Origin: Takifugu flavidus
Lineage: Eukaryota
Length of the DNA: 64,000 nt
Direction of reading: 5' to 3'
Assembly: GCF_003711565.1 (NCBI RefSeq)
Contig: NC_079534.1
Coordinates: 9,589,991-9,653,990, forward strand
Shown here: positions 205-64,000 of the stretch, piece by piece
Layout: each line of letters begins with the position of its first letter
Position numbering within the stretch: the first letter of the stretch is position 1
Translations under genes and position numbers: made by a program
The notes under the pieces: generated by a model
Seen by the model: only the letters and a program-made list of their open reading frames with translations
Told to the model about the DNA's origin: nothing
Databases searched by the model: none

Positions 205-414
<210 letters not shown>

Positions 415-20762: not shown

Positions 20763-20878
20763 CTGCGGACAGAATAAAACAGTAAAAACATCACATCTCC
20801 CAAGATCTTGTTCCAATGTTTTGAAACTATTCTGTTTCTGTATCTACAACCACCTGTAGCTGCAGATTTGTATTTCAC

Positions 20879-21671: not shown

Positions 21672-21745
21672 CTAGAGGACGCAAAGGTTTGCTACAATGA
21701 CTAAAATGTATTTATTTTAATGACTATGAAGCCACCAATCTTCAC

Positions 21746-37941: not shown

Positions 37942-38439
37942 ATTAAAATGTAATTGTAAATTATGTTTTCCAAGAATTATGAGTGAACTTTTTAAAAAGT
38001 ACCACTTAAGGGATGTCAGTAGTGTAAATAGTGTTGAAGCTGGCCTGAAGGTCAGCAGTGTAAGTGCACTGTAGCTGAAGAGTGGTCGAACTGAATTGTT
38101 TATATTCTATAACTGTCAGTAGCATTCGAGCATTGAGAAATTCTTCATTTGGTCCTTTGGGAACCACGTCTTTTGCTCATATTGATTCAACAACTCTTAT
38201 AACATATCAGTTTGTGTGACACCTTCATACACCATTCCTGACTCTAATAATTATTGCTTTGTTTGAATATGTAAAAAAGGGTAGCAACTTTGCACCACTG
38301 ATATCAAGATATAGTTGGACTTAATCTGAGTATTCTGACTAACTACAGTATATTGCCTCTCAAGGCAACATCTGCAACTGAACTGCTCATGGTTCCATTC
38401 ATCTTAAATATTTGTTAAGATGAACTAAAACATGGAGGT

Positions 38440-38506
38440 TGTATGACATACACATATATATATATATACACACACAAACACACACACATATATATACTGT
38501 ATATAT
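38440..38506. repeat. (CA)n/(TA)n compound microsatellite flanking the Tc1 left end
   Basis: acatacacatatatatatatatacacacacaaacacacacacatatatatactgtatata. Confidence 0.9.

Positions 38507-40091: not shown

Positions 40092-40093
<2 letters not shown>
38507..40093 (-). mobile_element. Tc1-like DNA transposon with long terminal inverted repeats; transposase gene degraded
   Basis: Left terminal inverted repeat TACAGTGCCTTGCGAAAGTATTCGGCCCCC.... The right end (gggggccaaatact) is its reverse complement but lacks the last ~14 bp. Internal inverted repeats of about 200 bp each contain the shared string caatattatttggcccccttgcg. Confidence 0.9.
38727..39795 (-). pseudogene. Tc1 transposase, split into two overlapping ORFs by a frameshift (paired-like DNA-binding domain 39367-39795; DDE catalytic domain 38727-39506)
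   Basis: ORFs translate to ...SRSTVQAIILKWKEYQTTANLPRPGRPSKLS... and ...WSDETKIELFGHNAKRYVWRK...FQQDNYPKHKAKSTMEWF...DLNPIENLW.... Confidence 0.85.
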
Positions 40094-40124
<31 letters not shown>

Positions 40125-40262
40125 CATATATACATATACATATATATACATACACACACACACACACACATATATATATACACATACACACACACACACA
40201 TATGTGTGTATGTATGTATACACACACACACACACACACATACATAAATATATATAAATAAA
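40094..40262. repeat. (CA)n/(TA)n compound microsatellite at the truncated Tc1 right end
   Basis: catacacacacacacacatatatatatatatacatatatacatatacatatatatacatacacacacacacacacatatatatatacacatacacacacacacacatatgtgtgtatgtatgtatacacacacacacacacacatacata. Confidence 0.9.
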
Positions 40263-42218
40263 ATACAATATTGTATGTTGATCATACAAAACATATATAT
40301 ATTCCAATATGAAAAACTTCAGTGTCTTACCATTAAGCACCCTCATTTTCAGTTATGATTTAAAAGTTGTGAAATCAAGACTCCATACAATGAAAACTGA
40401 ATACTTTAATATATTCAGACAAAAAAAACCAAACATGTGAAACACATTTTAACAGTGTATATTTTAAAAATCTTGTCAAGTTTGCAAATCCAGCAGCTTT
40501 ATTTTGTGAATACGCTTGAAACCCACTTTGTGATCCATAGGCTACCTGTAAGAACAAAAGATAACACGCAAGATTTGGAATTTAGTTCATCAATGACAAA
40601 ACTAAAACGATATTGAGCACTGCTATGAAACCAATGTCAGTCCCCATGTTAAGTGATACACACCTCAAAATCCAATGCCTCTATGCTGTCAGGTTCTCCA
40701 TTCCTAAAAGGGAGCACACTGTTTAGTGTAAATTGCATTATAATAGGTTCTTCATAATTGTGTCTTGTCAAACCCCATCAGTGCAGTGAAGTTATAATCA
40801 CGAGTTTCAGGTGAAACACGGACACATGCAACTCATCATTAAGGTTTGACACTGGCTGAAAAACAATCCCAATATAGTTTCATCATTACCACCAAGAGTG
40901 CACCCACAGCTTCAATTCAAATGATCTATGGGGATGCAGCACTTTATTGTATAGTAGCTTCAAAGATACAATTTTTAGAGTACTTACTGAATTCTGGCGT
41001 CAAATCGTATAATTACAAAAATATGTAAAACCACACGAAATATACGAAAGTTAAAGGTGATTAAAAATATTGCCTAATAAAACTTGCGAGGTTCGCCGAT
41101 TGATTAGGTTTAGTAATTAAGACAACCTTTATAAAAAATAAAAAAAATAAAAAATAAAAGCTCTCCGGCTCTTTATAATTTTGGGCATGTCCACTGACCA
41201 CGAGGTCGACAAGATGGGCATTAACAAGCTAACAAAGAAGGGTTAAGAAAACAACCAGAAGAAGAAAGTACATGCATATTAATGTGAACCATGGACATTA
41301 TCTACTTACCCAGAACTCGAGGTTATACCTTCAAACAATCAGTTCGAACGCTGGTGTGTATAACTCAGTGCACCACCATTTAACACACCATCACAGTCAG
41401 GAAGAAGGGAAATTGAAGAGAACGAAGCTTAATTTATTTCTAAAACCACGTGATCACTGCTTTCGTCACCCACCAATCGTGTGGTTTCCGGGTTGTTTGT
41501 CAGTCCTAAAAAACTATGTATGCGGTATAAAACCCAAAAATAATTATTTAAATACAACTGTTTTTTCGTCATCTCACAATATTGTGAATTAGCACAAAAT
41601 GTGAATTATGCAATATTATGTAACTGTTTTTACTTTGAAAGGAAAACCCAGAAAAAGAAAATTGCTGACAATTGTATTGGCTATAATAGGGCCATAGATA
41701 ATAGAGCCTTACAAAAAAGTAAATTTAAAGAAACCCCAGCAATTTCAGTGTATTTAGCACATTTTAAAAAAAAACAGATTGCTAGTATGATGATCAACTA
41801 TATGATGAGACAATAGTTAGACATTAACCGTCATTTAACCTTCTAAATAAAATCAGTCACAATTGATTTTTTTCTTTATTTCATTTTGTTCTTTAGTTTA
41901 GTGTGTAATTTAAAAAACCAAACAAACCTAGTAGATTTTAGTACGTAGAATATTTTGTTCCGCACTCCAGTCTAGACGGGGGCGGTATTTCACTTAGAGT
42001 GCCACCCGCCATAAATAATAGGAAGGAAGAAGTTAACTGTTAACGCCAGAAGAAGAAGTCGACAAGGTCGTCCTACGGAACAATAATTACAGCAGCCCTG
42101 GTTGCTCGGTTAAATGGCTGCCTGTCACTTCAGGGGTTAACTAGACTCGTCGCGGCGCTGCTAGAACGACGATATTGTTGTGACAGACTAATCTAAGGCT
42201 CGATACTAACAAGACACG

Positions 42219-44133: not shown

Positions 44134-44968
44134 GTATGTCCAAACAATGGATTTTATGGTACATTGAACAAACATTACCAGTTAAGTCAGAAAAGGAGAT
44201 GTTGTGTATCAAAGAATTTGATATTTTAAGAAATGTGAAAAAGTTGTCTGTGTAAAACAATGTCATACTAAGTCACCCAGATTTTTATTTGTAAATCTTG
44301 TAAATAGCTTTAATTTCACAAGCTGAAAAGATGAATTGGCATACACAGTTTTTGTACATCCTTGTACCTACCTCTCTTGAAGCATACACACAGTTGTAAG
44401 TTTGGATCAACATTGGCAGAACTTCTTTAAGAAGAAAACACATCTGAACACAGTGCGCGAATGCTGTTTATAGATTTCAGTTTCATCATTCAATCGAATC
44501 ATGCCCCTCTGGCTCATTCTAAAGATCATTCAGCTGGGGCTGAACCCTGCCTTTTGCAATCAGGAAAACACAGATAATATGACAACAGGAGTTCCACAAG
44601 GTTGACAGCATCACAGAATCACTCACCTTGCTCATTAACTCCACATCACTGGCCAAGAAAGCCAACACCTCAAGTTCACCTCAGGTTCCTCCGCAAGTTG
44701 AAAAAAGCTTGAGCTCCGCCCCAATTGTAATTTGCAATATTCATATGCACTTAAATCGGTTATGTGTGTTATTTTTATTTACTTTAGTTTGTTTACATGA
44801 TTTTACCCTATTTTGCACGCTCTTTTTTGTGATTTGGATTAATTTTTTAGAAACTGCAAGAAATATCCAAGGCTGAAAGGAATAAAATAACGTTCTCACA
44901 GGCCACAGAGCGGAATATGTAATAACCTTGACTCTGGCTGCTAAATATGCTAAATTTCTTGCCACCAG

Positions 44969-45396
44969 GTGTAGTTCTCGGCCGTGATGGTGGTGCCATG
45001 AAGCAAATGCTGCTGCCTTTCTGGCTTGGCCTTGGTGGAACTTTGGGCTCAGGACGCCAACCATTTCCCTGGATCCACATCTCAGATCTAGCAGGAATTA
45101 TTGCCCACGCCCTTGAACACCCTGGAGACGTTGCCTCCTCCTCTCCACAAGTTTTTAATGGAGTAGCGCCTGTACTGAACACCAATTATGAGTTCACCAA
45201 AGAGCTGGGCAGAATAATGAGGAGACCAACCATTCTCCCTGTGCCTGGCTTCTTTGTTAAAGCTCTAATGGGCTCTGAGCGGGCCATGGTCCTCACACAG
45301 GGCCAGAAAGTCATACCAAAGAGGACACAAGAGTCCGGATATCACTACAAATACCCAGACTTGACCTCAGCCCTTATCGAAATTGTAGGGGATTAA
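44969..45396 (+). CDS. sdr39u1: sdr39u1 terminal exon (VVLGRDGGAMKQMLLPFWLGLGGTLGSGRQPFPWIHISDLAGIIAHALE...ALIEIVGD*)
   Basis: Matches human [50 protein letters not shown]. Acceptor gccaccag, stop TAA at 45394-45396. Confidence 0.92.
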
Positions 45397-49952: not shown

Positions 49953-50058
49953 GGTATGAGTTTGTCTTCCTCCACAGAGTCAGCACAGCATCCTCACGAT
50001 CCTTCACACCAGGAAGTTCTGACAGGGTGAAGGCAGCAGTCACCAAGTCAAACTGCAC
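49951..50058 (-). CDS. mettl17: mettl17 exon 9 ([36 protein letters not shown])
   Basis: Matches human [36 protein letters not shown]. Acceptor cctgcag. The donor is the first GT of the (GT)n array. Confidence 0.85.
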
Positions 50059-50321
50059 CTGCAGGAACATAAAGTCAAATGTAAAAAAAAAAAAATCAGG
50101 TTGCTAAAATTAAGAATGGTTTGACATTTGGAGACCACAGACTGCTCTGTTTTTTTCGATTTGCCTGACCGATTCTTGTCTACTTTTGGGTTCTGCTGTT
50201 ATTTTTGGCATACTAGCTGATGCCCACCCAGTGTGGTTTCAAAGGCATGAGGTCCAAGATAAAGAAAAATGAAGAACAACATTTTTTTTTCTTATCAAAT
50301 TACATTAAAATCATGCTTTAC

Positions 50322-50392
50322 CTTAGGAGAGACAGGGAGGAACTGTCTGAAATAGACTTGCTTTATGCATGGCTCCCCTCTTTCTTCAATTC
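50322..50392 (-). CDS. mettl17: mettl17 exon 8 ([23 protein letters not shown])
   Basis: Matches human [23 protein letters not shown]. Acceptor aaaag, donor gtaaag. Confidence 0.85.
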
Positions 50393-50480
50393 CTTTTCAT
50401 CAAGACACAAAAGATCAGGAATGGACTTCAAAAAAGTTTTTGGAAGTATTAAGTTGTTTTAGAAATGCCTGTAACAGTAC

Positions 50481-50575
50481 CTTTCAGAAGTTTCTCTGCT
50501 AGGATGTTCATTGGCCCAGAGCTGTCCACACACACCATCTCCTTTAAAGACTCACTCCAGCATGAGTGTGCAGCC
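50481..50575 (-). CDS. mettl17: mettl17 exon 7 ([31 protein letters not shown])
   Basis: Matches human [32 protein letters not shown]. Acceptor tacag, donor gtactg. Confidence 0.87.
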
Positions 50576-50645
50576 CTGTAGGAGAGTAGTAGGGATAGTA
50601 CCAGCAAAGTCTACACACTAACCAGATGTATAATGTTTGACTCAC

Positions 50646-50719
50646 CAGACAACTGTTCCCAGACCAGAACCAAAATCTAGGAGAGTCTGGGGAGCAAACA
50701 AAGGGTCCCTTTTCTTTAT
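50646..50719 (-). CDS. mettl17: mettl17 exon 6 (IKKRDPLFAPQTLLDFGSGLGTVV)
   Basis: Matches human [25 protein letters not shown] (SAM-binding GxGxG motif). Acceptor cttag, donor gtgagt. Confidence 0.87.
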
Positions 50720-50851
50720 CTAAGATAGAAAAGGAAAAGGTTTGTTATAGTGAGTATATAAATTTAAATAAAGAAGCTCTTAGACTCTTCAAATGAGGTG
50801 CTGTTGTGTGAGTGAAACTACGAATATTAATGATTTTTTTGTTGCAGGCAC

Positions 50852-50933
50852 CTCATTTACAGCTCTCCTAACTGCTGCGTAACAACCAGCAAGCCGAGCT
50901 GCCATGTACACCAGACCCAGCTCTTCATCATAC
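50852..50933 (-). CDS. mettl17: mettl17 exon 5 ([27 protein letters not shown])
   Basis: Matches human [27 protein letters not shown]. Acceptor gtatcag, donor gtgcct. Confidence 0.87.
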
Positions 50934-51448
50934 CTGATACACAGAGAGCACAAAATAATCAGTATCTTATAATGAAGCAGACCCCCCATTTTACATCCCA
51001 AGCTGAACATTATGATGAATCCATTACCATGAAAAATTCCATTAATGTGAACAGTTGAGAAATTTGAAGATAAAATAATCTCCAAAAAGCATTAAGTTAA
51101 ACACAAAAAGGAGAAAGCAGCCCCCTGCCAAGAAAATGGGAACCTCCTGAGATTTGGGCTCTCTAATAACTTTGACCAAGTCATCATACCTTAGTTGGCC
51201 TGTTATTCTGTGTAAGTTATAAAGAGAATGTGTCATCTGTAACTTTATGTCTTTTGGAGAACATTTTAAGTGCTCAAATTTTTGCATGGCAGTGTAACAG
51301 ATGCTAATGGTAACAAATGATGTGCAACTAAAGAAATGGTTGGGAGATGTGTTAACTGGGCATAAACAGCGTTTATTTAAAAAAATAAAATAAAATAACA
51401 GGCTTGTATTCCTGATATATACTGTGACATGGGAGATAAAAGTCATAC

Positions 51449-51536
51449 TTCAGGGGAGTCCAACGATATGTGGTTCTTCTTAGCTCAAACAACACTTTTT
51501 TCCTGATTTGCTCTTCAAGCAATTGTTCATCTAAAC
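51449..51536 (-). CDS. mettl17: mettl17 exon 4 (LDEQLLEEQIRKKVLFELRRTTYRWTPL)
   Basis: Matches human [26 protein letters not shown]. Acceptor ttttgcag, donor gtatga. Confidence 0.85.
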
Positions 51537-51625
51537 CTGCAAAAATAATAAACAAGCTCTATAATCGCAGGTATATCATGTAATTTTACAGCTGCTGTTA
51601 CTTTTTGACTTGTAAATCCACTCAC

Positions 51626-51775
51626 CATATCCCTTTTTAATTGCTCTCTCCCTCAGCTCTTTCTCTAAGCTCATAGCTTTTTTCTGCAAGGTCACATTCT
51701 CAAATGCTCGCTTTCTGCTCCAGAGGAAGTTTTTGAGGAGATTGGCACGGTCAGTTAGTCGAGCCACCTGAGCTT
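51626..51775 (-). CDS. mettl17: mettl17 exon 3 (AQVARLTDRANLLKNFLWSRKRAFENVTLQKKAMSLEKELRERAIKKGY)
   Basis: Matches human [31 protein letters not shown]. Acceptor tcttttag, donor gtgagt. Confidence 0.82.
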
Positions 51776-51852
51776 CTAAAAGATTGAAAATATACTGCAT
51801 TAACAAAATGTCAGGACCAGCAAAAGCTGCATTAGAATTCAAAATGACTTAC

Positions 51853-51988
51853 TGTGAAGAATTTGGCATGCGTGTGTCTGTAGCGTTTCAGGAAGACGCA
51901 AGGTTTTCAACTTAGACACACCTGGGTGCTTCCGGTGCACTTCTCCTTTTAGGAAATCTATATGAGGCTGTGCAGCTGTACTGATTCC
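51853..51988 (-). CDS. mettl17: mettl17 exon 2 (GISTAAQPHIDFLKGEVHRKHPGVSKLKTLRLPETLQTHACQILH)
   Basis: Matches human [42 protein letters not shown]. Acceptor ttaattaatag, donor GTAAGT. Confidence 0.82.
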
Positions 51989-52397
51989 CTATTAATTAAA
52001 AAACATGTAACGACTTTACGGTCTATTTTACCCCAATTAGACAAACAATTCTAGAAAATATACTGTATATAAATCACTATTATACGAATATTGCATATAT
52101 TGAAGAGACTGCATTGAATTTCTGCTCAATTTAGCACTCCATTTGCAGTCAACAGTTTTTATTCTAAGACATTTAAGAAAATTTAAGTTTTTAAAAAAAT
52201 TATATAGATATACTCCAATAACATGAGCATTTTTACTTTTTACTACGAGTAGAAAAAAATACAATGCAATCAAGAGCAACTAATACTAATTCTGAAAATT
52301 GCAATTAAAGCAAAATCTGTATTTTATTTTCCATTTCTCAGCTGTGGAAATGTGTTTTCCACATTTTCGACCTATTTAGCAAAGAAATTACACTCAC

Positions 52398-52466
52398 TTT
52401 ACATGTCGTCCTCACAACAGCAGCCTTACGACAAACGACACTGGCGACATAACTCACTGCAGCCAT
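52398..52466 (-). CDS. mettl17: mettl17 exon 1 coding part (MAAVSYVASVVCRKAAVVRTTCK; basic and amphipathic, resembling a mitochondrial presequence)
   Basis: ATG at 52466-52464, donor AAA|GTGAGT at 52397. Human begins MAAALKCLLTLGRW. Confidence 0.75.
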
Positions 52467-52974
52467 GTCTTTGGCGTATGTGCTGAGGCTTATTTTCTTT
52501 AATTTTAGGTTTTACTAATACCCACTCCTCGGCGACAATAGCGTAAGCATTTTCGTACCCTTAGTCCTTCAACGGAAAAAAATCCGATCATCACCTAATG
52601 AGGAACCATCGGTCCCGAAGTTTTGTTCCACCTTGTTAGTACATACGCCAGGGCATTCACTTTGCTAATAATGCAGGGGCACGGTCTTTTTGGTCTAATT
52701 CATTATTTTCCCGTGAATTGCTTTCGCCCAGAAATAAAATGCAAATATATAGGGTGCCGAGAGCCAGTTGCAATTTCATTAACTTTGCGCTTGTTTAAAG
52801 AAGTAGCCAATGTATGTGGCAGTGTGAGACATCTTAATTCTTAAAATGATCTTTAGCAGAGCAGAGCGGGTGACGGCGCGGCCAAACTTTTGAGTCCTTT
52901 GTTGACGTCTCAGTGCACGTTAAAGTGCTTTAAGATAACCCAGCTGAATGAGGTTTTATACCTCGTTAAAAATC
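52467..52974. promoter_or_regulatory. Shared head-to-head (bidirectional) promoter region of mettl17 (-) and parp2 (+)
   Basis: Only ~508 bp separate the two start codons. Contains an ATGCAAAT octamer immediately followed by ATATATAG (52739-52754) and CpG clusters at 52870-52890. Confidence 0.6.
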
Positions 52975-53041
52975 ATGAGGCGCCAAAGAAGCGCAAGAAA
53001 TAAAAATCAAGCTGTCGAAGAAAGTCCGAGTTCCGACACAG
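52975..53041 (+). CDS. parp2: parp2 exon 1 coding part (MRRQRSARNKNQAVEESPSSDT; basic N-terminus)
   Basis: ATG at 52975, donor ACAG|GTCAGT at 53042, phase 1. Human PARP2 begins with a similarly basic MAARRRRSTGGGRARALNESK. Confidence 0.75.
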
Positions 53042-53609
53042 GTCAGTGCCTAGTCTTGTACTGTCAGTTCGCTTGCTAACACAGTTAGCTGCTGTAACTG
53101 TCACTGTTAAAACATGTTGTGGTATCGAAGTGGAAACTCGAGCTCGTGTATTTAAGGGTTATCTCATGTTGAGGCTTGTAGATATTATCAAAACTATTTG
53201 AAAGTATTAAAAGAAAGACTTCGTTGTCAAAGAGAGCCACCTCGATATGTTAGCTAATTTACACCTTTCTTATTATCCCTCTCCTGTCCCGTACAAAACA
53301 CTGTTCAGAAATAGATTATTAATATTGTTGTTAATATATTATTAATATTATTATTGTTGTAAGTCCTTATTGTTATATTAGTGATCCTTTAAAAAACAAG
53401 CACGATAATCTAGCAGATCTTATTTTTTGTAAGAAATTTGCATAATTTAGGCAATTTTTTACATTTATTTAATTTTCATTTAGTTCAAAAACCTTTTAAT
53501 TTTAACTAGCAAAATATTCTTTTCTTACTATATTTTCAAATTGCTACAGATTGTTTTGAATTGTTACAGTGTCATAGTAGTGTACAGTATTTCTCTATGT
53601 GTGAATCAG

Positions 53610-53816
53610 TGTGGCAGTGGCAGGGAGACGAAGGACAGTGGGAACCATACTCGCCCTCTGTCTGCACCTTACTGAACTCAGCAGTTGCGTCTGGGAACTC
53701 TGTCCATCTCTCTTTGGACTCTGGGCAATCCTATGAAGTTGACCTGAAGAAAATGCTTCAGATTAACCCTGTGACCAAGTACAAGAGGAAGATTCGTTGT
53801 CAGACAGTAAAACCAG
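53610..53816 (+). CDS. parp2: parp2 exon 2 encoding a WWE-like domain (VWQWQGDEGQWEPYSPSVCTLLNSAVASGNSVHLSLDSGQSYEVDLKKMLQINPVTKYKRKIRCQTVKP)
   Basis: Acceptor gtgaatcag at 53609, donor CCAG|GTACAT at 53817. Phase 1 in and phase 1 out, in frame with exons 1 and 3. The W.W..(D/E).G.W..Y...........G...(V/I)....G..Y.(V/I)D...M.Q.N..T...R.(I/V)RR pattern resembles the RNF146 and PARP11-14 WWE domains. Confidence 0.65.
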
Positions 53817-54044
53817 GTACATAAATTCCAGTAATGGTAATGCATTATATGGACCCAACTAAAGACTTGTGTTTTTTTTAAAATAGAAAAAGAAATCAGT
53901 CTTTACTACAATGTGGTTTGTGTAACATAAAAAAATACAACATCTAATAGCAAAACCAATTACATAGTTTAAAGCTATACAAATATTGGGATACTTAATA
54001 TGATAGACTGACATTAAATTGATGACAAAGTCTATCTCTTACAG

Positions 54045-54206
54045 AAACCATGGCCAATGCTATTGAGGAAAGCCAACAGAGCAGTACTCGAGTTCAAATT
54101 AAAGAGGAAGAGGAGGAAGAAGATACAAACAAGCAGCCTGCTACTAAGAGGATGAGAGGACAAACTAACTATGAAGGAAGTCCCAAAGAGAATCCAAAAA
54201 TTGAAG
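54045..54206 (+). CDS. parp2: parp2 exon 3 (ETMANAIEESQQSSTRVQIKEEEEEEDTNKQPATKRMRGQTNYEGSPKENPKIE; acidic/basic linker)
   Basis: Acceptor tcttacag, donor gtaact; phase 1 to 1. Confidence 0.75.
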
Positions 54207-54382
54207 GTAACTTGGATTTATTGGCCACTTTTGTTGTCTTTGTAATGCATACAACCAGTGTGAAATGGGATGACAAATGCAGTTGCTCAGCCAAATGCCT
54301 GTTTATGTAGGTTTTTAACATATTACTTTATATGAACTTGGTGTTATCTCTCAATAAAAGTTTGTATTTGCATGTTGAAAAG

Positions 54383-54453
54383 AGGTGGTAAAGATGGTGG
54401 TCCTGAAAGGAAAAGCTCCAGTGGACTCTGAGTGTAAAGCAAAGCTCAGAAAG
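54383..54453 (+). CDS. parp2: parp2 exon 4 (EVVKMVVLKGKAPVDSECKAKLRK)
   Basis: Matches human SESVKALLLKGKAPVDPECTAKVGK (WGR region). Confidence 0.88.
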
Positions 54454-54641: not shown

Positions 54642-54692
54642 GCTCATGTTTACACTGAAGGAAATAATGTTTATGATGTCATGTTAAATCAG
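54642..54692 (+). CDS. parp2: parp2 exon 5 (AHVYTEGNNVYDVMLNQ)
   Basis: Matches human AHVYCEGNDVYDVMLNQ. Confidence 0.92.
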
Positions 54693-54780: not shown

Positions 54781-54877
54781 ACAAATCTTCAGTTTAATAA
54801 TAACAAATACTACCTGATGCAGCTGTTGGAGGATGATAAATCCAAATTTTACAGTGTGTGGTTTAGGTGGGGAAGAG
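54781..54877 (+). CDS. parp2: parp2 exon 6 (TNLQFNNNKYYLMQLLEDDKSKFYSVWFRWGR)
   Basis: Matches human TNLQFNNNKYYLIQLLEDDAQRNFSVWMRWGR (WGR domain). Confidence 0.92.
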
Positions 54878-54962: not shown

Positions 54963-55038
54963 TGGGAAAAGTGGGTCAAAACAATCTGATCGAATGTGGT
55001 GCAGACCTGAACCAAGCCAAAGATATCTTCAAGAAGAA
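54963..55038 (+). CDS. parp2: parp2 exon 7 (VGKVGQNNLIECGADLNQAKDIFKK)
   Basis: Matches human VGKMGQHSLVACSGNLNKAKEIFQKK. Confidence 0.9.
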
Positions 55039-55115: not shown

Positions 55116-55218
55116 GTTCCTTGACAAGACTAAAAATGAGTGGGAGGACAGAGAAAACTTTATGAAAGTAGCAGGAAAATATGACATTGTGCTTATGGAC
55201 TACAGCGCAGATGAAAAG
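55116..55218 (+). CDS. parp2: parp2 exon 8 (FLDKTKNEWEDRENFMKVAGKYDIVLMDYSADEK)
   Basis: Matches human FLDKTKNNWEDREKFEKVPGKYDMLQMDYATN. Confidence 0.9.
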
Positions 55219-55306: not shown

Positions 55307-55454
55307 GAGAAGAAAAACGCCATGGTAGATACCAAAAAACAGGCCTCCATGCTGGATGTGAAAATCCAGGAACTATTGGAGCTAATCTGTGATCTTAAAG
55401 CCATGGAGGAATGTGTGCTGGAGATGAAGTTTGATACCCAAAAAGCTCCACTTG
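55307..55454 (+). CDS. parp2: parp2 exon 9 (EKKNAMVDTKKQASMLDVKIQELLELICDLKAMEECVLEMKFDTQKAPL)
   Basis: Matches human LDLRVQELIKLICNVQAMEEMMMEMKYNTKKAPLG (helical domain). Confidence 0.9.
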
Positions 55455-55535: not shown

Positions 55536-55674
55536 GTAAATTGACCTCAGAACAGATCCGTGCAGGCTATGTGGCTCTAAGGAAAATTGAGGACTGTTTG
55601 AAAAAGAAGAGCAGCCGCAATGAGCTGTTGGAAGCATGCAACCAGTTCTACACTCGCATCCCTCACAACTTTGG
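55536..55674 (+). CDS. parp2: parp2 exon 10 (GKLTSEQIRAGYVALRKIEDCLKKKSSRNELLEACNQFYTRIPHNF)
   Basis: Matches human GKLTVAQIKAGYQSLKKIEDCIRAGQHGRALMEACNEFYTRIPHDFG. Confidence 0.92.
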
Positions 55675-55745: not shown

Positions 55746-55809
55746 GTTGAAAACTCCTCCAATCATTCATACAGAACAAGAGCTAAAGGAAAAGATTGCA
55801 CTTTTAGAG
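55746..55809 (+). CDS. parp2: parp2 exon 11 (LKTPPIIHTEQELKEKIALLE)
   Basis: Matches human LRTPPLIRTQKELSEKIQLLE. Confidence 0.9.
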
Positions 55810-56128: not shown

Positions 56129-56263
56129 GCACTGAGTGATATTCAGATTGCTGTGAAAATGGTTAAATCTAATGAAGACGGTGATGAAAATCCACTAGAC
56201 AGGCAGTATCGCTCCCTCCATTGCAGCTTGCAGCCTCTGGACTCCAGCTCCCATGAGTACAGG
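56129..56263 (+). CDS. parp2: parp2 exon 12 (ALSDIQIAVKMVKSNEDGDENPLDRQYRSLHCSLQPLDSSSHEYR)
   Basis: Matches human ALGDIEIAIKLVKTELQSPEHPLDQHYRNLHCALRPLDHESYEFK. Confidence 0.92.
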
Positions 56264-57978: not shown

Positions 57979-58106
57979 GTAATTGAAAAGTATCTCCAGT
58001 CTACTCATGCTCCCACCCATTCAGACTACACCATGACCGTCATTGACATTTTCACCGTTGACAGAGAAGGAGAGAGTAACAATTTCCTGTCACACTTTCA
58101 CAACAG
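57979..58106 (+). CDS. parp2: parp2 exon 13 (VIEKYLQSTHAPTHSDYTMTVIDIFTVDREGESNNFLSHFHN)
   Basis: Matches human VISQYLQSTHAPTHSDYTMTLLDLFEVEKDGEKEAFREDLHN (catalytic domain). Confidence 0.93.
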
Positions 58107-58252: not shown

Positions 58253-58352
58253 GACTTTGTTGTGGCATGGTTCCCGTCTTTCTAACTGGGTTAGCATCCT
58301 GAGTCAGGGGCTCAGAGTAGCTCCACCTGAGGCTCCAGTCACTGGATACATG
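58253..58352 (+). CDS. parp2: parp2 exon 14 ([34 protein letters not shown])
   Basis: Matches human [34 protein letters not shown] (H-G-S of the catalytic triad). Confidence 0.93.
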
Positions 58353-58508: not shown

Positions 58509-58607
58509 TTTGGAAAGGGTATCTACTTTGCTGACATGTCATCAAAAAGTGCTAACTACTGTTTCGCCAATCAGAGTAACCACATTGGACTGCTACTACT
58601 GTGTGAG
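58509..58607 (+). CDS. parp2: parp2 exon 15 ([33 protein letters not shown])
   Basis: Matches human [33 protein letters not shown]. Confidence 0.93.
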
Positions 58608-59440
58608 GTACGTTCACTTATTTTCTTGATGGTTCTGTGTTGTATCTTCTTTAATTTAAGATCTGTATTCTTTGCTGTTCGATTGAAAAACACTCTGGTA
58701 ATCTCCGACTTTCTGGCACTACAATAGTGCTTTTCCACTAGTACCTGCTCAGGTCAGCTCAAAGCTTCAGGGTTTTCCATTACGAGATACTTTTTAGCAC
58801 CTACTTGGTCAGGGTTCTAAGTGTGCTGAGCCTGGGTTTGAGCTGAAATTGGTAATGCAGGCCAGTGATTGGCCAGGGAAAGATGGGTCGTGACAGTCAC
58901 TCAGTCACTTGACTTAAACGTGTCACTTTAAAAATCTGGCAATGGCGAACAAGCTTTTTCATTACCTCTTTGAACAAAATGATAATGGCTATGTACACCG
59001 ACGAGGTGCAGTCTTCTGTACAGAAGCCTGAGAGAGCTTCCGAATACAGAGCGATCTAAGATAAGGGGGTTACCAGGAGGACTCTGAGCTGATGGTTTCT
59101 CATGCAATTACCAGACCATCAAGGACCACAGCGGTCAGGTTGGGTTGAAAGGAAAGGACTGGATGTGGTTTAATGAAAATGGATGCTGTTGGGTGGAGGC
59201 TTTACAGTTTGTGTCCAGGGTCTGCAGCGATGTCACGGGTCCTCCTCCTGGCGCTGGACTATGAGTCCTGGATAGAGGGAAGATCGGTCCTGATGATTTT
59301 CTCTGCAGCTCCAATTGTCCTTTACAGCTCTTATCCAATTTGGTGGCAGAGTCAAACGAGATGTGATGGAAGTGCACAGGACAGACTGAACTGTTGAAGT
59401 GGGTTCCAGGAAGCAAGTTGAACTTCCAGAGAACCCTCAG

Positions 59441-59986
59441 GCAGTACCGTATTTTCCGGACTGTAAGTCGCACTTTTTTTCATAGTTTGTCAGGGGGTGC
59501 GACTTGTACTCCGGACCGATTTAAATTATTACATTATTACGGAATTTCACATGTTCATTATTTTCACACTGACAACCACAAGAGCGCTCTAGGCGTGTGT
59601 ACCTGAGGAATGAGTTCCTTTAGTGACGCAGAAGAAGCGGTGCTTCATCTATGGAGTTAGACTTGATTGTTTGGTAAACTTGCTCGGATGTTCTTTATGC
59701 TATAGTTATCTGAATAACTGTTAATATGTTACGTTAACAAAGCAGACACATACTCAGTTCGTTGTGGGTCATGTAGCTGAATTTGTTATGTTAGCATACC
59801 GTAACCCTATTGCTAATCCATGCGAATTGCCTTTCAAGATGAAATGTATGTTCTTGGTCTCGGATTTTATCAAATAAATTTTTCCCCAAATGCGACTTAT
59901 AGTCCAGTGCGACTTATATATCTATTTTTCTTCTTTATTATGCATTGTTTGGCTAATGCGACATATAGTCCAGAAAATACGGTACA
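59441..59986. mobile_element. MITE-like non-autonomous DNA element (~545 bp) with ~30-bp terminal inverted repeats
   Basis: Left end cagtaccgtattttccggactgtaagtcgcac. Right end gcgacatatagtccagaaaatacggtac is its reverse complement with a few mismatches. Internal subrepeats gcgacttatagtccagtgcgacttatat. Confidence 0.6.
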
Positions 59987-61199
59987 TCCTCTGCAGGGCC
60001 TTTTTGGTGACTGTTTATGTGGGAGGTCCACAGTAGACATTGCATTTTTGGGAAGGGGGTTCAGCTCCAGTTTATTCTGACTGTACCAGAAGACCAACTG
60101 TTCTGCCCGACCATTAAGCTGATCCATCAGCAGCAGTGATGGTGGTGGTGCTTCTGTAAACCAGATCATCTCCTCTTAGCTTCTCTGATTCTCTTGTTCA
60201 GTTTTTTTCTGGTGTGCCTGTACAGGCCCCCTACCATTTGCAGGCCTCCTTGGTCATGATTTTTTTTATAACCCATGGCTTATTGTTTTTGTATATACAG
60301 AAGTTTTTTGTCTGTTTAGAGCTGATGAAAGATGTGAGTGGGCGCATCCAAGTCGGGATTGTGTCCTCAATTGAAAAGTGATAGAACCTGCATGGAGTCA
60401 AGCAAAGTGGTGCCACTATTGTTTACAGGAGAACCCCATGTATGACGATATCACATGCTTATTTCACATTTTTTTTCCTGCCTGCTAAGATTGTTAAATT
60501 ATTTGGCTATTGAGTAATAGTTAGACGTAATTATTATTAAATTATTTGATCCAAGTACATTAAATCACCTTGGGGCACCTCCTGATCACAACAACTCGCT
60601 ATAACACAAATACAACTTGCTTGACTGGGCCTAGTTTGTGTTACCGGTCCTGGAGGGAGAGATACTTACTCCAGTGTGTTGCTCTACTGAGATGGTGATC
60701 CATGTGGAGGAGCCAACCTGGGAAAAGATTCTAGATCCAATTTGAAAGCTTGTGCATTCCTGGTGGTTGCAGAAAACTGGTAGCTACTTTGAGGTAGCTT
60801 GTTAGCAGCTCAATGCTAACTGGCTGGATGGCTCCTGTTGCTGAGATGTTTAGCTTGCCAACCTTGTGTTGGGTGTCTTATGGCACTTGTCCCATCTCGT
60901 TGCTGTGAGAAATGGCAGTGAAGCGAGGAGAGCAAAAGTAAGAGAGAACTAAGTCAAGCCACATGCCACAGTCAGCCAGTGGTAACTACTAGATCAGGTT
61001 TTCACACCTGGAGGATTGTGGGACATTTGAAGTTATAGTGCTTTTCTTTGTCTCCAAGACAAAGAAAGACATGCAGTCATCTTGGTTATGCTTGGGTAGC
61101 CTCCACTGCTCACCCACAGGTCCAGGTCCCAACAAAGGTGCAGGAGAGAGAATCCACCATGTCCAGATCTCAAACTGATTGATGACGGCAGTAGAAATA

Positions 61200-63045
61200 G
61201 TGAAACTGATATAGAATAAGAATCAGAATCAGAGTACTTTATTGATCCCTTTAGGGGGTGTCCATTAGGGAAATTAGCATCTCCCCAAAGAAAGGTACAG
61301 CACTGTTTAAAATATTAAAAATATTAAAAATAATAAAAAATAAAAATAGAATAAAATAAGAAATAAAATAGAATAAATTAAAAATAGAATATAAATATAA
61401 AATATCAAACTATAGAAATCTAAATAAATGAACTGAATGAATGAATGAACGGAATGAATGGATGTCCCAGTATTATGTTATTGCAGTGTTGTTCCAGTCC
61501 TTCTGTTGGCCCTCCTCCCCCCCAGTGAGGAGTTGAACAGTCTGATGGCTCGGGGGATGAATGAGTTCCCCAGTCTGTTTGTTCTGAATTTGGGGAGGCG
61601 CAGCCTCTGGCTGATCAGGCTTCTCTGGGTGTGGATGACAGTGTGCAGAGGGTGGCGGACATTGTCCATGATGCTCTGCAGCTTGTCAATAGTTCTCCTC
61701 TCTGCCACTGTCACCAGAGGTTTCAGTTTCATCCCAACCACCGAGCTGGCCCGCCTGATCAGCTTCTCCAGCCTGGAGAGGTCTGCTTTTGTCACACTCC
61801 CCCCCCAGCACACCACAGCGTAGGACAGGACGCTGGCGACCACAGACTGGTAGAACATCCAGAGGAGTTTCCTGCAGATGTTGAAAGATCTGAGTCTCCT
61901 CAGGAAGTACATCCTGCTCTGGGTCTTCTTGTACAGCTGCCTTGTGTTGCTTGTCCAGTCCAGCCTATTGTCCAGCCACAGCCCAAGATATTTGTAGGTC
62001 TGCACGCCCTCCACCTCCTCCGTTCCTATCTGAACTGGTCTAGGTCTCGGTCGGTCCCTCCCAAAGTCAATGACTAGTTCTTTAGTTTTGGAGGTGTTGA
62101 GCTGCAGGCCGTTGTTGTGGCACCAGGCAACAAAGTCCCTCACCAGGCACCGGTACTCCTCCTCTTCGTCGTCTCTGATACATCCAACGATGGCTGTGTC
62201 ATCAGCGAACTTCTGAATGTGACACATTTCAGAGTTGTAACAGAAGTCCGAGGTGTACAGAGTGAAGAGGATGGGGGACAGCACAGTCCCCTGTGGAGCA
62301 CCGATGCTGCTGACCACAGTGTCAGACGTGATGTCCTTCATCCTGACGAACTGCGGCCTGTCGGTGAGGTAGCTGGAGATCCAAGCAACCAGGCAGGGGC
62401 CCACTCGCATCTGTAGAAGCTTGTCCTGTAGGACAAGGGGCTGGATCGTGTTGAAGGCACTCAAGAAATCCAAAAAGAGGATTCTCGCTGTGCCACTCCC
62501 CTTGTCCAGATGTGAGTGGAGGGAGGAGGGGAGGTGGAGGAGGGAGGAGGGGAGGCGGGGTTGGGGGAAGTTGTGGTGGGTGGCGGGTTGGAGGGAGGGG
62601 GGGGTAGAGGGGGGCTCGGCTGCTGGGGGGGAGTGGGGGGGGGGGGGGTGGAGGGGAGCTGGGCTGCTGAGGTGGGGGGCAGAGGATTGGAGTGGAGTGG
62701 GCTGACTGAACCTGTTGAAGAATTGGTTCAGGTCGTTTGCCCTCTCCACTCCTCCCCCTTCCGTGCTGGTCTTGGCTTTGTGACCAGTGATGGTCCTGAC
62801 ACCTTCCCAGACGTCCCGCATGTTGTTATCAGCCAGCTTCTTCTCCACCTTCTTCCTGTAGGTGTTCTTTGCCTCCTTCAGGCAGCGTTTCACCTCCCTC
62901 TGCGCTTCTTTCATCTCCTCCCTGTCTTTATTTCTGAAGGCCTTTTTCTTCTTATTGAGGACATCCTTGACTTCCTGTGTTACCCATGGCTTATTGTTAG
63001 GATAACACTCTACAGTCTTGGTGGGGACAACCACATCTACACAGA
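61200..63045 (-). mobile_element. 5'-truncated non-LTR retrotransposon (LINE) copy in a parp2 intron, antisense to parp2
   Basis: 518-aa minus-strand ORF (61478-63034) with reverse-transcriptase motifs (ILFLDFLSAFNTIQP, QGTVLSPILFTLYT, FADDTAIVG). The 3' end on the minus strand has a (CATT)n tail and an A-rich stretch (61200-61470). Confidence 0.85.
62500..62700 (+). repeat. G-rich low-complexity tract (GGGAGG/GGGGTG runs) inside the LINE reverse-transcriptase ORF
   Basis: ggagggaggaggggaggtggaggagggagg...gggggggggggggggtggaggggagctggg; encodes a proline-rich insert on the LINE coding strand. Confidence 0.85.
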
Positions 63046-63238
63046 AATTGAGGTAGTCTGTGAGACTATCATATCATATCATATCAATACATTATCAATA
63101 CAATACATATCATATCAATACAAATATAAGCTTAGATTTGGCAGAGGTAATAAAAACATAAATATTTCTTTTTGACTTCGTTTGATTTGATGTAGAACTA
63201 TCTCCTTATCCATACTGTGTTTCTATATGTGATTCTAG

Positions 63239-63363
63239 GTTGCCTTGGGTGACAGTAACGAGTTATTGGATGCAGACTTTGAGGCCAGCAAACTGCCTGA
63301 TGGAAAACACAGTACCAAGGGCCTCGGACAGACCGGACCTGACCCCAAAAACTCTCTAATTCT
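63239..63363 (+). CDS. parp2: parp2 exon 16 ([41 protein letters not shown])
   Basis: Matches human [42 protein letters not shown]. Acceptor gattctag. The 3' boundary is tentative (donor gttagt at 63364). Remaining exons lie beyond the window. Confidence 0.8.
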
Positions 63364-63439: not shown

Positions 63440-64000
63440 TAAGACTATTTACACGACGAAAACATACACTGCTTAAAAAAATTAGAGGAACACTTTTTAA
63501 TCAGAGTATAGCAACCTATCATTCAAAGTTCTGGGATATTGATCTGGTCAGTTAAGTAGCAGAGGGAGTTGTTAATCCGTTTCTGCTGCTTTGTTGTTAA
63601 TGAAATGAACAAAAGGTGCATCAGAGGGGCAACAATGAGACGGCCCCCAAAACAGGAATGGCTTTCCAGGTTGAGGCCACTGATACCTTTTTTCCTCCTC
63701 ATCTCTTTTGGCTGATTTTTTTTACTGACTGACTTTCTACTGCTGTCATTATTCATTTGGCTTGGATCAACATCTCTGTTGATAGCATGGTGCGGTACCT
63801 GTATGCTACAGAGGTTGCACAAGTAGTCCAACTCCTCCAGGATAGCACATCAATACATGCCGTTGCAAGGTTTGCTTTGTCTCCCAGCACAGTCTCAAGA
63901 GCATGGAAGAGATTCCAGGAAACCGGTAGTTACTCCAGGAGCGCTGGACAGGGCCATAGAAGGTCCTTAAACCCTCAGCAGGATCGGTATCTGCTCCTTT
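63440..64000 (+). mobile_element. 5' part of a second Tc1-like transposon, in a parp2 intron; continues past the window end
   Basis: Terminal inverted repeat-like start tacacgacgaaaacatacactgcttaaaaaaattagaggaacac..., then a transposase N-terminus MVRYLYATEVAQVVQLLQDSTSIHAVARFALSPSTVSRAWKRFQETGSYSRSAGQGHRRSLNPQQDRYLL from 63783. Confidence 0.8.

What the first reader, a model, noticed from the sequence alone, without database searches (positions are those of the whole stretch)
53561..53824. parp2 carries an in-frame exon encoding a WWE-like poly(ADP-ribose)-binding domain
Between parp2 exon 1 and the WGR-domain exons lies a 207-bp exon at 53610-53816 (see features for the residues). It splices in frame on both sides, phase 1 in and phase 1 out. 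Its motif pattern is that of WWE domains. WWE domains bind iso-ADP-ribose and occur in RNF146, Deltex and PARP7/11-14; the human PARP2 N-terminal region is a short basic segment with no WWE domain. A PAR-reader domain fused to a DNA-damage PARP writer would be a functionally meaningful architecture. I cannot tell from sequence alone whether this exon is annotated in other teleost parp2 genes.
Basis: partly seen in the sequence, partly recalled or inferred. Interest (0 to 1): 0.78.

Follow-up and report, generated by a model that had tools for sequence, protein, structure and literature searches.

The report
Pufferfish parp2 WWE-domain exon, already annotated
The 207-base exon is a real, constitutive exon of the pufferfish parp2 gene that encodes a WWE (ADP-ribose-binding type) domain, but it is already annotated in every teleost PARP2 examined and was described in 2014, so it is correct but not new.

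Summary
Window 53610-53816 (+) is a 207-nt AG/GT exon, phase 1 in and out, between parp2 exon 1 and the WGR exons. Its 69 residues score 65.9 bits against Pfam WWE (cut-off 21.1). The predicted fold matches only solved WWE domains (TM 0.74-0.86).

My 16-exon model is an exact substring of Takifugu flavidus RefSeq PARP2 XP_056913661.1. All RefSeq isoforms of T. flavidus and T. rubripes keep the exon. All 123 full-length teleost PARP2 proteins retrieved carry the domain. A transcript contig from another fish joins exon 1, WWE and exon 3 directly.

The architecture is old. Tandem WWE-WGR-HD-ART PARP2 occurs in sponge, oyster, flatworm, centipede, ray, frog and platypus. Teleosts keep one WWE; human PARP2 has none. 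Perina et al. 2014 already reported WWE domains in frog and fish PARP2.

The adenine/phosphate pocket residues of RNF146 (Y107, Y144, Q153, R163) correspond to W26, Y64, Q73 and R82, which are invariant in 95 teleosts. The phosphoribose contacts are not conserved. Binding of ADP-ribose or PAR is therefore likely but untested, and I found no functional study.

Verdict: real, correctly interpreted, already known, low interest.

The parts
52975..53041 (+). parp2 exon 1 (coding part): MRRQRSARNKNQAVEESPSSDT plus 1 base. The T. flavidus RefSeq model starts 27 nt upstream at ATG 52948.
   Evidence: Donor is CAG|gtcagt. The teleost consensus start is MRR....
53610..53816 (+). parp2 exon 2: 207 nt, phase 1/1. 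It encodes the whole WWE domain, protein residues 23-91.
   Evidence: Pfam WWE scores 65.9 bits. AF2 pLDDT is 86 and Foldseek returns WWE-only hits. In related fishes, conservation stops exactly at the exon ends. It is the only WWE-coding segment in 50000-54400 in six frames.
53618..53620 (+). Codon W26 (exon-peptide W4), aligned to RNF146 Y107, the aromatic residue that stacks on adenine.
   Evidence: Alignment. Role in RNF146 from PMC8853533. Invariant in 95 teleosts.
53732..53734 (+). Codon Y64 (exon-peptide Y42), aligned to RNF146 Y144, a phosphate contact.
53759..53761 (+). Codon Q73 (exon-peptide Q51), aligned to RNF146 Q153, the buried glutamine that hydrogen-bonds adenine.
   Evidence: This column is Q in all 19 WWE domains aligned.
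53786..53788 (+). Codon R82 (exon-peptide R60), aligned to RNF146 R163, a phosphate contact.
54045..54206 (+). parp2 exon 3: 162 nt, phase 1/1. It encodes a poorly conserved linker with an acidic run (EEEEEED) and a basic KRMR patch. A nuclear-localisation role for that patch is inferred only.
   Evidence: Mean identity among teleosts is 0.40, against 0.75 for the WWE exon.
54383..54453 (+). parp2 exon 4 (start of the WGR region).
54642..54692 (+). parp2 exon 5 (WGR).
54781..54877 (+). parp2 exon 6 (WGR; ...FRWGR motif).
54963..55038 (+). parp2 exon 7 (WGR).
55116..55218 (+). parp2 exon 8 (end of WGR and linker).
55307..55454 (+). parp2 exon 9 (helical/regulatory domain, PARP_reg).
55536..55674 (+). 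parp2 exon 10 (PARP_reg).
55746..55809 (+). parp2 exon 11 (PARP_reg).
56129..56263 (+). parp2 exon 12 (PARP_reg).
57979..58106 (+). parp2 exon 13 (start of the catalytic ART domain).
58253..58352 (+). parp2 exon 14 (ART; LLWHGSR carries the catalytic His).
58509..58607 (+). parp2 exon 15 (ART; GIYFAD carries the catalytic Tyr).
63239..63363 (+). parp2 exon 16 (ART). The gene continues beyond the window end; the final coding exon or exons, with the catalytic Glu, lie past 64000.
   Evidence: The C-terminus ...LLYNEFVVYN... is seen only in P0148.

Best explanation
Window 53610-53816 is the constitutive second coding exon of parp2 in a Takifugu flavidus-type genome. It encodes one complete WWE domain (residues 23-91). 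That domain is joined by a poorly conserved linker of roughly 60-90 residues (exon 3 onwards) to the WGR DNA-break sensor, the helical regulatory domain and the ADP-ribosyltransferase domain.

Shown here:
- the exon, its phases and its junctions;
- its inclusion in annotated isoforms and in a related fish transcript;
- WWE family membership by profile and by predicted fold;
- its presence in all teleost PARP2 proteins retrieved, with conservation close to that of the WGR domain;
- the wide metazoan spread of WWE-PARP2, usually as a tandem pair.

Inferred:
- The domain binds an ADP-ribose-derived ligand through a pocket formed by W26, Y64, Q73 and R82.
- It thereby gives PARP2 a built-in reader of poly(ADP-ribose) laid down at DNA breaks, mostly by PARP1.
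- That would hold PARP2 on already PARylated chromatin, or bring its active site next to existing chains for elongation or branching.
- This is the job proposed, and disputed, for the basic N-terminal region of human PARP2.
- Therian mammals lost the WWE exon or exons. Teleosts kept one of an ancestral pair.
For: Exon and frame. The spliced model is an exact match to XP_056913661.1.

Family: Pfam WWE scores 65.9 bits against a cut-off of 21.1. The whole protein gives WWE + WGR + PARP_reg + PARP. It scores 672 bits to human PARP2 against 396 to PARP1.

Fold: AF2 pLDDT is 86.3. The top 24 Foldseek PDB hits are all WWE domains: TRIP12 0.84, HUWE1 0.85-0.86, RNF146 0.83. The next hits have probability below 0.3.

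Inclusion in mRNA:
- Takifugu RefSeq isoforms X1-X5 (T. rubripes) and X1-X3 (T. flavidus) all keep the exon.
- The 2477-bp Logan contig L001 carries an uninterrupted 637-aa ORF with the WWE domain.
- L001 aligns to the window in 16 blocks that match my exons.

Constraint:
- 123 of 123 full-length teleost PARP2 proteins have the domain.
- Mean identity is 0.75, against 0.44 and 0.40 for the flanking exons and 0.81 for WGR.
- dN is 0.085, against 0.175-0.218 for the flanking exons, and dN/dS is 0.30.

Pocket: RNF146 Y107/Y144/Q153/R163 (roles from PMC8853533) align to W/Y/Q/R. These are invariant in 95 teleosts.

Antiquity: tandem WWE PARP2 is found in oyster, sponge, flatworm, ray, frog, platypus, centipede and snail, and WWE-bearing PARP2 relatives also in snake, tick and nematode.

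Literature: Perina 2014 reports WWE at the N-terminus of PARP2 in frog and fish as a putative PAR-binding module. Chen 2018 reports that the human PARP2 N-terminal region binds PAR and stimulates branched-chain synthesis.
Against: - No binding or cell-biological experiment on any PARP2 WWE domain was found in the held literature.
[quoted passage not shown] R110 aligns to Asp, and the C-terminal extension with K175 is absent. Specificity for the internal iso-ADP-ribose unit of PAR cannot be assumed.
- The closest solved relatives, TRIP12, HUWE1 and DTX1, were crystallised with ATP, ADP or ADP-ribose.
- The eponymous Glu position is Asn in Takifugu and Asp in most teleosts.
- The human analogy is contested. 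Lin et al. 2025 (PMC11838041) find the human N-terminal region neither necessary nor sufficient for recruitment, which instead runs through XRCC1.
- The full-length AF2 model was too poor (pLDDT 51.6) to say anything about contacts between domains.
Confidence: 0.75

Rival explanations
1. The domain is a genuine WWE fold, but it does not read poly(ADP-ribose). It could be a protein-protein interaction module, as first proposed for WWE domains and as in Deltex-Notch binding. It could instead bind free nucleotides such as ATP or ADP, or only mono-ADP-ribose.
For: The phosphoribose sub-site of RNF146 is not conserved. The nearest solved structures are complexes with ATP, ADP or ADP-ribose rather than iso-ADP-ribose. 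ZAP WWE2, with the same W-for-Y107 substitution, accommodates an ADP unit rather than iso-ADP-ribose (PMC8853533). Citarelli 2010 describes WWE domains as postulated protein-protein interaction domains.
Against: The four adenine/phosphate pocket residues are invariant across 95 teleosts. An ADP-ribose unit is the repeating unit of PAR, so a pocket of this type still reads PAR, as ZAP does. The fusion partner is itself a PAR writer that acts where PAR is abundant.
Confidence: 0.2
2. The exon is a cassette exon that is usually skipped, which would give a mammal-like PARP2. Alternatively it belongs to a separate nested transcript.
For: The exon is symmetrical (207 nt, phase 1/1), so skipping it keeps the frame. 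Two Ensembl-derived Takifugu fragments, A0A674MV82 and A0A674P2U0, lack a complete WWE domain.
Against: All eight RefSeq isoforms in two Takifugu species include it. All 123 full-length teleost proteins include it. At least one intron-free transcript contig joins exon 1, WWE and exon 3. The two Ensembl fragments start inside or after the exon, so they are truncated models, not skips. No own start codon or promoter is needed to explain the exon.
Confidence: 0.03
3. It is a decaying relic of the ancestral tandem WWE pair with no remaining function.
For: Teleosts have lost one of the two ancestral WWE domains and therian mammals have lost both, so the module is dispensable in some lineages. The canonical Glu is replaced.
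Against: Conservation is close to that of the WGR domain: identity 0.75 against 0.81, and dN 0.085 against 0.084. This is far above the flanking exons. No frameshift or stop was seen in any of more than 120 species. The fold is predicted with confidence.
Confidence: 0.02

Closest known systems
Annotated teleost PARP2 (for example Takifugu flavidus XP_056913661.1, T. rubripes XP_029686723.1, UniProt H2TS30_TAKRU)
   Same: It is the same gene and the same exon. The window-derived protein is identical to XP_056913661.1 over all 590 residues encoded in the window. The domain string is WWE-WGR-PARP_reg-PARP.
   Different: Nothing of substance differs. Only the choice of start codon varies, 52948 against 52975.
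Tandem-WWE PARP2 of other animals (oyster XP_011443308, sponge Ephydatia Em0023g523a, electric ray XP_069796903, frog A0A8C5Q305, platypus XP_028933514)
   Same: These are PARP2-type proteins with N-terminal WWE followed by WGR, HD and ART. The second WWE keeps the Y144-, Q153- and R163-equivalent residues.
   Different: They carry two WWE domains and teleosts carry one. In the tandem proteins the first WWE has I, L or T at the Y144 position. The teleost domain has Tyr there, but overall it scores equally against both copies, so which copy survived is unresolved.
RNF146 (Iduna) WWE domain, PDB 3V3L
   Same: Same fold (TM 0.83). Aromatic, Tyr, Gln and Arg residues of the adenine/phosphate sub-pocket are conserved.
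   Different: Only about 23% identity. The R110 and K175 contacts to the phosphoribose are absent and there is no C-terminal extension. The domain is attached to a PAR writer rather than to a RING E3 ligase.
TRIP12 and HUWE1 WWE domains (PDB 9BKR, 6PFL)
   Same: These are the closest solved structures by sequence (30-35% identity) and by fold (TM 0.84-0.86, rmsd 1.0-1.7). They are single compact WWE domains without the RNF146 extension.
   Different: They sit in HECT ubiquitin ligases. They were crystallised with ATP, ADP or ADP-ribose.
Human PARP2 N-terminal region (NTR)
   Same: It occupies the same position in front of the WGR domain. It is reported to bind PAR and to stimulate PARP2 (Chen 2018).
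   Different: It is a short, basic, unstructured segment with no WWE fold. The human protein aligns to the fish protein only from residue 133. Its role in recruitment is disputed.
Clade-3 WWE-containing PARPs (PARP7, 11, 12, 13, 14)
   Same: WWE reader and ART domain lie in one polypeptide.
   Different: Their catalytic domains are mono-ADP-ribosyltransferases or inactive, and they lack WGR and HD. The WWE-ART combination in PARP2 sits in clade 1, the DNA-break-activated poly-ART clade.

Membership tests
WWE domain (Pfam PF02825) | Profile-HMM score above the curated gathering threshold over most of the model. | tested here: met
   65.9 bits against 21.1, E = 4.1e-18, profile positions 2-66 of 67. 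Also 62 bits in the context of the whole protein.
WWE domain (Pfam PF02825) | Compact beta-sheet fold with one alpha-helix, superposable on solved WWE domains. | tested here: met
   The AF2 model has pLDDT 86.3, six strands and one helix. Foldseek PDB ranks 1-24 are all WWE domains with TM 0.66-0.86. Non-WWE hits have probability below 0.3. This is a prediction, not an experimental structure.
WWE domain (Pfam PF02825) | The conserved Trp, Trp and Glu residues that give the family its name. | tested here: inconclusive
   The tryptophans are present and invariant in teleosts (W24, W26, W33). The helix Glu position (RNF146 ...LEDAF) is Asn in Takifugu and Asp in most teleosts. It also varies (E, D, Q) among solved WWE domains.
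WWE domain, ADP-ribose/PAR-binding subclass (RNF146-like pocket) | Adenine/phosphate sub-pocket: an aromatic residue at Y107, plus Tyr144, Gln153 and Arg163. | tested here: met
   These positions are W26, Y64, Q73 and R82. Roles are from PMC8853533. All four are invariant in 95 teleost PARP2 proteins.
WWE domain, ADP-ribose/PAR-binding subclass (RNF146-like pocket) | Phosphoribose sub-pocket that gives iso-ADP-ribose specificity (R110, W114, K175 in the C-terminal extension; this residue list is recalled from Wang et al. 2012, which I could not read). | tested here: not met
   R110 aligns to Asp. K175 has no counterpart because the domain ends at the exon boundary. The W114 alignment is ambiguous. 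The residue list is from memory; the paper I did read, PMC8853533, says only that four unnamed RNF146 side chains contact the phosphoribose.
WWE domain, ADP-ribose/PAR-binding subclass (RNF146-like pocket) | Measured binding to PAR, iso-ADP-ribose or ADP-ribose. | not testable with these tools
   This needs ITC, pull-down or filter binding with recombinant domain. No such data were found for any PARP2 WWE domain.
PARP2 orthologue (clade 1 DNA-dependent PARP) | WGR, helical regulatory domain and ART domain in this order, with no zinc fingers or BRCT. | tested here: met
   Pfam finds WGR at 180-259, PARP_reg at 292-422 and PARP at 436-586.
PARP2 orthologue (clade 1 DNA-dependent PARP) | Closest to PARP2 rather than to PARP1 or PARP3. 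| tested here: met
   672 bits to human PARP2 (6x0l), 396 to PARP1 and 174 to PARP3. Identical to the RefSeq protein named PARP2.
PARP2 orthologue (clade 1 DNA-dependent PARP) | Catalytic H-Y-E triad. | tested here: inconclusive
   His (LLWHGSR) and Tyr (GIYFAD) are encoded in the window. The Glu lies in an exon beyond base 64000. It is present (LLYNEF) in XP_056913661.1, which matches the window exactly over the part encoded there.

The most novel reading that the evidence does not exclude
The WWE domain is the ancestral, direct PAR-reading device of animal PARP2. It makes PARP2 a 'second-wave' polymerase that docks on PARP1-made chains and extends or branches them. Therian mammals lost it and now reach the same end indirectly, through XRCC1 and/or the basic N-terminal region. 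Under this reading, fish or frog PARP2 would be the natural system in which to settle the dispute over how PAR recruits and activates PARP2. Nothing here excludes this reading and nothing here tests it.
Probability: 0.4. Interest if true: 0.45.

Novelty: already known. Interest (0 to 1): 0.14.

Why it matters
As a discovery it does not matter much. The exon is in RefSeq and UniProt for every teleost PARP2 retrieved here (over 100 species), and the architecture was noted in a 2014 survey.

What remains open is function. I found no experiment on any PARP2 WWE domain. Meanwhile the question of how poly(ADP-ribose) recruits and activates human PARP2 is actively disputed: direct binding by the N-terminal region against XRCC1 bridging.

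The comparative picture assembled here offers a ready-made test of whether direct PAR reading is an ancestral PARP2 property. That picture is a tandem WWE in sponge through platypus, a single WWE in teleosts, none in human PARP2 (the only therian sequence examined), and a conserved adenine/phosphate pocket.

Tried and rejected
- **First homologue search.** Searching with only the 146 N-terminal residues returned just 30 candidates, all single-exon ORF fragments from raw contigs and none annotated. These were useful for exon-boundary conservation but misleading about annotation. The full-length query was needed.
- **Third homologue search.** A tandem-WWE profile, meant to map which vertebrates have two WWE domains, returned 10 short unnamed or unrelated hits. 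The distribution therefore rests on 20 named cluster representatives.
- **Wang et al. 2012.** The paper (PMC3278890) is not held. RNF146 residue roles were taken from PMC8853533 instead. The R110, W114 and K175 roles are from my own recollection.
- **Full-length AF2.** The model with 95 teleost sequences had mean pLDDT 51.6, and even the WGR and ART domains were poor. It was rejected as evidence for linker disorder or domain docking.
- **W1 or W2 descent.** I tried to decide whether the teleost WWE descends from the first or the second ancestral copy. Pairwise scores are equal and motif features are mixed, so this is unresolved.
- **Relic second WWE exon.** A six-frame search of 50000-54400 found none.
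- **Rfam scan.** The window has no hit at gathering thresholds. In particular there is no RNase P RNA gene next to parp2, unlike the human arrangement as I recall it.
- **Literature.** Searches for functional work on a PARP2 WWE domain in zebrafish, Xenopus, chicken or platypus found nothing relevant.
Full report
**1. The observation**

Reading the window directly, bases 53610-53816 on the + strand form a 207-nt open segment. It is bounded by a polypyrimidine-rich acceptor (tatttctctatgtgtgaatcAG) and a GTacat donor. Exon 1 runs from the ATG at 52975 to 53041 (67 nt) and leaves one base over.

With that base, exon 2 reads VWQWQGDEGQWEPYSPSVCTLLNSAVASGNSVHLSLDSGQSYEVDLKKMLQINPVTKYKRKIRCQTVKP. 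It again leaves one base, which exon 3 (54045-54206) completes.

**2. Is it a WWE domain?**

- Against Pfam-A the 69 residues score 65.9 bits on WWE (PF02825). The gathering cut-off is 21.1, E is 4.1e-18, and profile positions 2-66 of 67 are covered.
- Against PDB sequences the best matches are the WWE domains of DTX1, TRIP12, Deltex, HUWE1 and RNF146.
- An AlphaFold2 model built on 19 fish sequences has mean pLDDT 86.3, with six strands and one helix.
- In a Foldseek search of the PDB, ranks 1-24 are all WWE domains: TRIP12 TM 0.84, HUWE1 0.85-0.86, RNF146 0.83, plus DTX1, ZAP, PARP11 and PARP14. Everything after that has probability below 0.3.

Family membership by profile and predicted fold is therefore met.

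**3. The gene**

I assembled 16 exons between 52975 and 63363. All have AG/GT boundaries and consistent phases. The 590-residue product has Pfam WWE (23-85), WGR (180-259), PARP_reg (292-422) and PARP (436-586). It scores 672 bits to human PARP2 against 396 to PARP1.

The alignment to human PARP2 starts only at fish residue 133, so the human protein has no counterpart of the WWE exon. The gene runs off the window: the last coding exon or exons lie beyond 64000.

**4. Is it annotated elsewhere?**

Yes.

- The full-length query returned more than 115 teleost proteins, most of them named poly [ADP-ribose] polymerase 2. Every complete one carries PF02825 together with PF05406, PF02877 and PF00644.
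- My spliced model is an exact substring of Takifugu flavidus XP_056913661.1. It differs at six positions from T. rubripes XP_029686723.1.
- The window is therefore T. flavidus or something indistinguishable from it, and my junctions are those of the RefSeq model.
- All five T. rubripes and all three T. flavidus RefSeq isoforms keep the exon. They differ only near the C-terminus.
- Two Ensembl-derived fragments lack a whole WWE domain. They begin inside or after the exon, so they are truncated models rather than skipped-exon isoforms.

**5. Transcript evidence**

P0025 is a 637-residue uninterrupted ORF on a 2477-bp Logan contig (SRR28040466; L001) with WWE-WGR-PARP_reg-PARP. A complete ORF of that size on a contig that short can only be an intron-free transcript assembly.

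Aligned to the window by blastn, it breaks into 16 blocks whose ends coincide with my exon ends. One block, 53602-53818, directly abuts the exon 1 and exon 3 blocks in the cDNA. This is another species (81% protein identity), so it shows inclusion in a related fish and not in this individual.

**6. Constraint**

- In ORF fragments from other fishes, similarity begins exactly at VWQW and ends at VKP. It decays at once into intron-like sequence on both sides.
- Across 117 non-Takifugu teleost orthologues, mean identity to the window protein is 0.75 for the WWE exon.
- The comparison values are 0.44 for exon 1, 0.40 for exon 3, 0.81 for WGR, 0.84 for the helical domain and 0.85 for the ART domain.
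- Against L001, dN is 0.085 for the WWE exon. That matches WGR (0.084) and is half that of exon 1 (0.218) and exon 3 (0.175). dN/dS is 0.30.

The exon is under purifying selection as a folded domain.

**7. The ligand pocket**

According to PMC8853533, RNF146 binds the AMP half of iso-ADP-ribose as follows:
- Q153 hydrogen-bonds adenine.
- Y107 stacks on it.
- R163 and Y144 hold the phosphate.
- Four other side chains hold the phosphoribose half.

I confirmed that my recalled RNF146 sequence equals PDB chain 3V3L_A residue for residue. I then aligned it with the fugu domain, four solved WWE domains and 13 WWE domains from distant PARP2 proteins.

| RNF146 residue | Fugu residue | Note |
|---|---|---|
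| Y107 | W26 | Trp as in ZAP, TRIP12, HUWE1 and DTX1 |
| Y144 | Y64 | |
| Q153 | Q73 | Q in all 19 sequences aligned |
| R163 | R82 | |
| R110 | Asp | phosphoribose contact, not conserved |
| K175 | none | C-terminal extension absent |
| W114 | ambiguous | alignment uncertain |

W26, Y64, Q73 and R82 are invariant in 95 teleost PARP2 proteins. The roles of R110, W114 and K175 are from my memory of Wang et al. 2012, which I could not read.

The domain therefore looks competent to hold an adenosine-phosphate unit, as the ZAP, HUWE1 and TRIP12 WWE domains do. It cannot be assumed to have RNF146's iso-ADP-ribose specificity.

**8. How old is the architecture?**

An exhaustive HMMER search of 1.84 billion cluster representatives with T. 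rubripes PARP2 gave 1708 hits at E below 1e-30. Of the best 150, 25 carry WWE matches to a teleost-derived HMM, and most of those carry two in tandem. Pfam confirmed WWE(x2)-WGR-PARP_reg-PARP in nine of ten tested representatives; in the frog representative, a 536-aa entry, the PARP catalytic domain was not matched.

Cluster names place these proteins as follows.

| Pattern | Organisms |
|---|---|
| WWE-bearing PARP2; tandem unless noted below | oyster, sponge *Ephydatia*, flatworm *Macrostomum*, centipede *Strigamia*, tick, snail *Bulinus*, nematode *Auanema*, electric ray, frog *Leptobrachium*, platypus |
| One WWE detected | garter snake |
| No WWE detected | a tunicate, tapeworms |

For the tick and the nematode only one WWE match was detected.

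The tandem WWE is thus ancestral for animal PARP2. Teleosts kept one copy. The loss usually described as 'mammalian' happened after monotremes branched off.

In the tandem proteins the first WWE has I, L or T at the Y144 position and the second has Tyr. This suggests that only the second copy binds ligand. The teleost domain has Tyr, but it scores equally against both copies. There is no relic of a second WWE exon between 50000 and 54400.

**9. Literature**

Perina et al. [quoted passage not shown] Citarelli et al. 2010 had listed WWE only in clades 2 and 3. The 2023 domain re-annotation of human PARPs does not discuss non-mammalian PARP2. I found no functional study of a PARP2 WWE domain.

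**10. Mechanism**

This section is inference. The most economical reading is a tethered reader. The WWE domain sits on a poorly conserved acidic/basic linker and binds ADP-ribose units of PAR made at DNA breaks. That would retain PARP2 on PARylated chromatin or place its active site on existing chains.

The reading parallels Chen et al. 2018, who reported that the human N-terminal region binds PAR and promotes branched-chain synthesis. That analogy is weakened by Lin et al. 2025. They find the human N-terminal region neither necessary nor sufficient for recruitment, and they assign PAR-dependent recruitment to XRCC1.

The rivals are a non-PAR ligand or protein partner, a cassette exon, and a vestigial domain. 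They are weighed in the structured sections of this report. The last two are contradicted by the annotation, transcript and conservation data.

**11. Verdict**

It is, however, standard annotation and published knowledge. Novelty is 'already known' and interest is low. The residual value is that the function of this domain appears never to have been tested, and it bears on a live dispute about PARP2 recruitment.

Noticed in passing
window 61481-63073 (-): An intact 531-codon ORF with a reverse-transcriptase domain (RVT_1, E = 5e-20) lies antisense inside the 4.6-kb parp2 intron 15 (58608-63238). It is a retroelement insertion that accounts for most of that unusually long intron.
   Followed up: partly
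window 63733-63999 (+): A stop-free stretch running to the window end reads like the N-terminal helix-turn-helix part of a Tc1/mariner transposase (...SPSTVSRAWKRFQETGSY...), inside parp2 intron 16. This was judged by eye only.
   Followed up: no
window 52948-52977 (+): An in-frame ATG lies 27 nt upstream of the conserved parp2 start. The T. flavidus RefSeq model uses it (MRFYTSLKIM-RRQ...), whereas T. rubripes and the teleost consensus start at MRR (52975).
   Followed up: partly
window 54045-54206 (+): parp2 exon 3 is also symmetrical (162 nt, phase 1/1) and is missing from the Ensembl fragment A0A674MV82. A related Logan ORF (P0018, 93% identical) has a 4-residue insertion (PKSQ) in this exon. 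The linker therefore tolerates indels.
   Followed up: partly
P0158 (platypus XP_028933514.1), residues 36-175: Platypus PARP2 keeps a tandem WWE pair (Pfam 88.9 bits, two stretches). The loss of the WWE module is therefore not shared by all mammals and happened after monotremes branched off, whereas the 2014 survey speaks of 'non-mammalian' species.
   Followed up: partly
PMC4245714, sections 3.1.1 and 4: The 2014 survey cites 'bird' as an example of WWE-bearing PARP2, yet also concludes that PARP2 is lost in all sequenced birds. I did not check bird genomes.
   Followed up: no
window 27035-30530 (+): A run of long ORFs has an endonuclease/reverse-transcriptase signature (Exo_endo_phos_2, E = 3.5e-8, for 28091-29029). 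This is a LINE-type retrotransposon.
   Followed up: partly
window 38730-39813 (-): Tc1/mariner-type transposase ORFs (DDE_3 and HTH_Tnp_Tc3_2) are flanked by (TG/CA)n-rich sequence at about 38420-38700 and 39980-40350.
   Followed up: partly
window 205-674 (-) and 4479-6938 (-): Neighbouring genes on the minus strand. The first segment holds WD40-repeat exons that read like coatomer alpha (weak Pfam WD40 hit only). The second holds pex19 exons (Pfam Pex19, E = 4.5e-31).
   Followed up: partly
window 11438-12325 (+): A single uninterrupted 296-codon ORF has two MARVEL membrane domains (E = 1.6e-25). It looks like an intronless MYADM-like gene.
   Followed up: partly
window 16960-22276 (-): Several long Ser/Pro-rich ORFs, plus one with the start of a Rel-homology DNA-binding domain (20627-21133; weak, 21.7 bits, below the cut-off). 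These are probably exons of an NFAT-family gene.
   Followed up: partly
window 34590-37938 (+): A rhodopsin-type GPCR (7tm_1, E = 1.3e-25, for 34590-35312) has its C-terminal transmembrane segments in separate ORFs at 37061-37306 and 37648-37938. The gene is either split by introns or disrupted. I did not resolve which.
   Followed up: no
window 44932-45393 (+): An ORF with DUF1731 (E = 1.4e-17), the C-terminal domain of SDR39U1-type epimerases.
   Followed up: partly
window 1-64000: No Rfam family reaches its gathering score anywhere in the window. In particular no RNase P RNA gene lies next to parp2, unlike the human PARP2/RPPH1 head-to-head arrangement as I recall it.
   Followed up: partly
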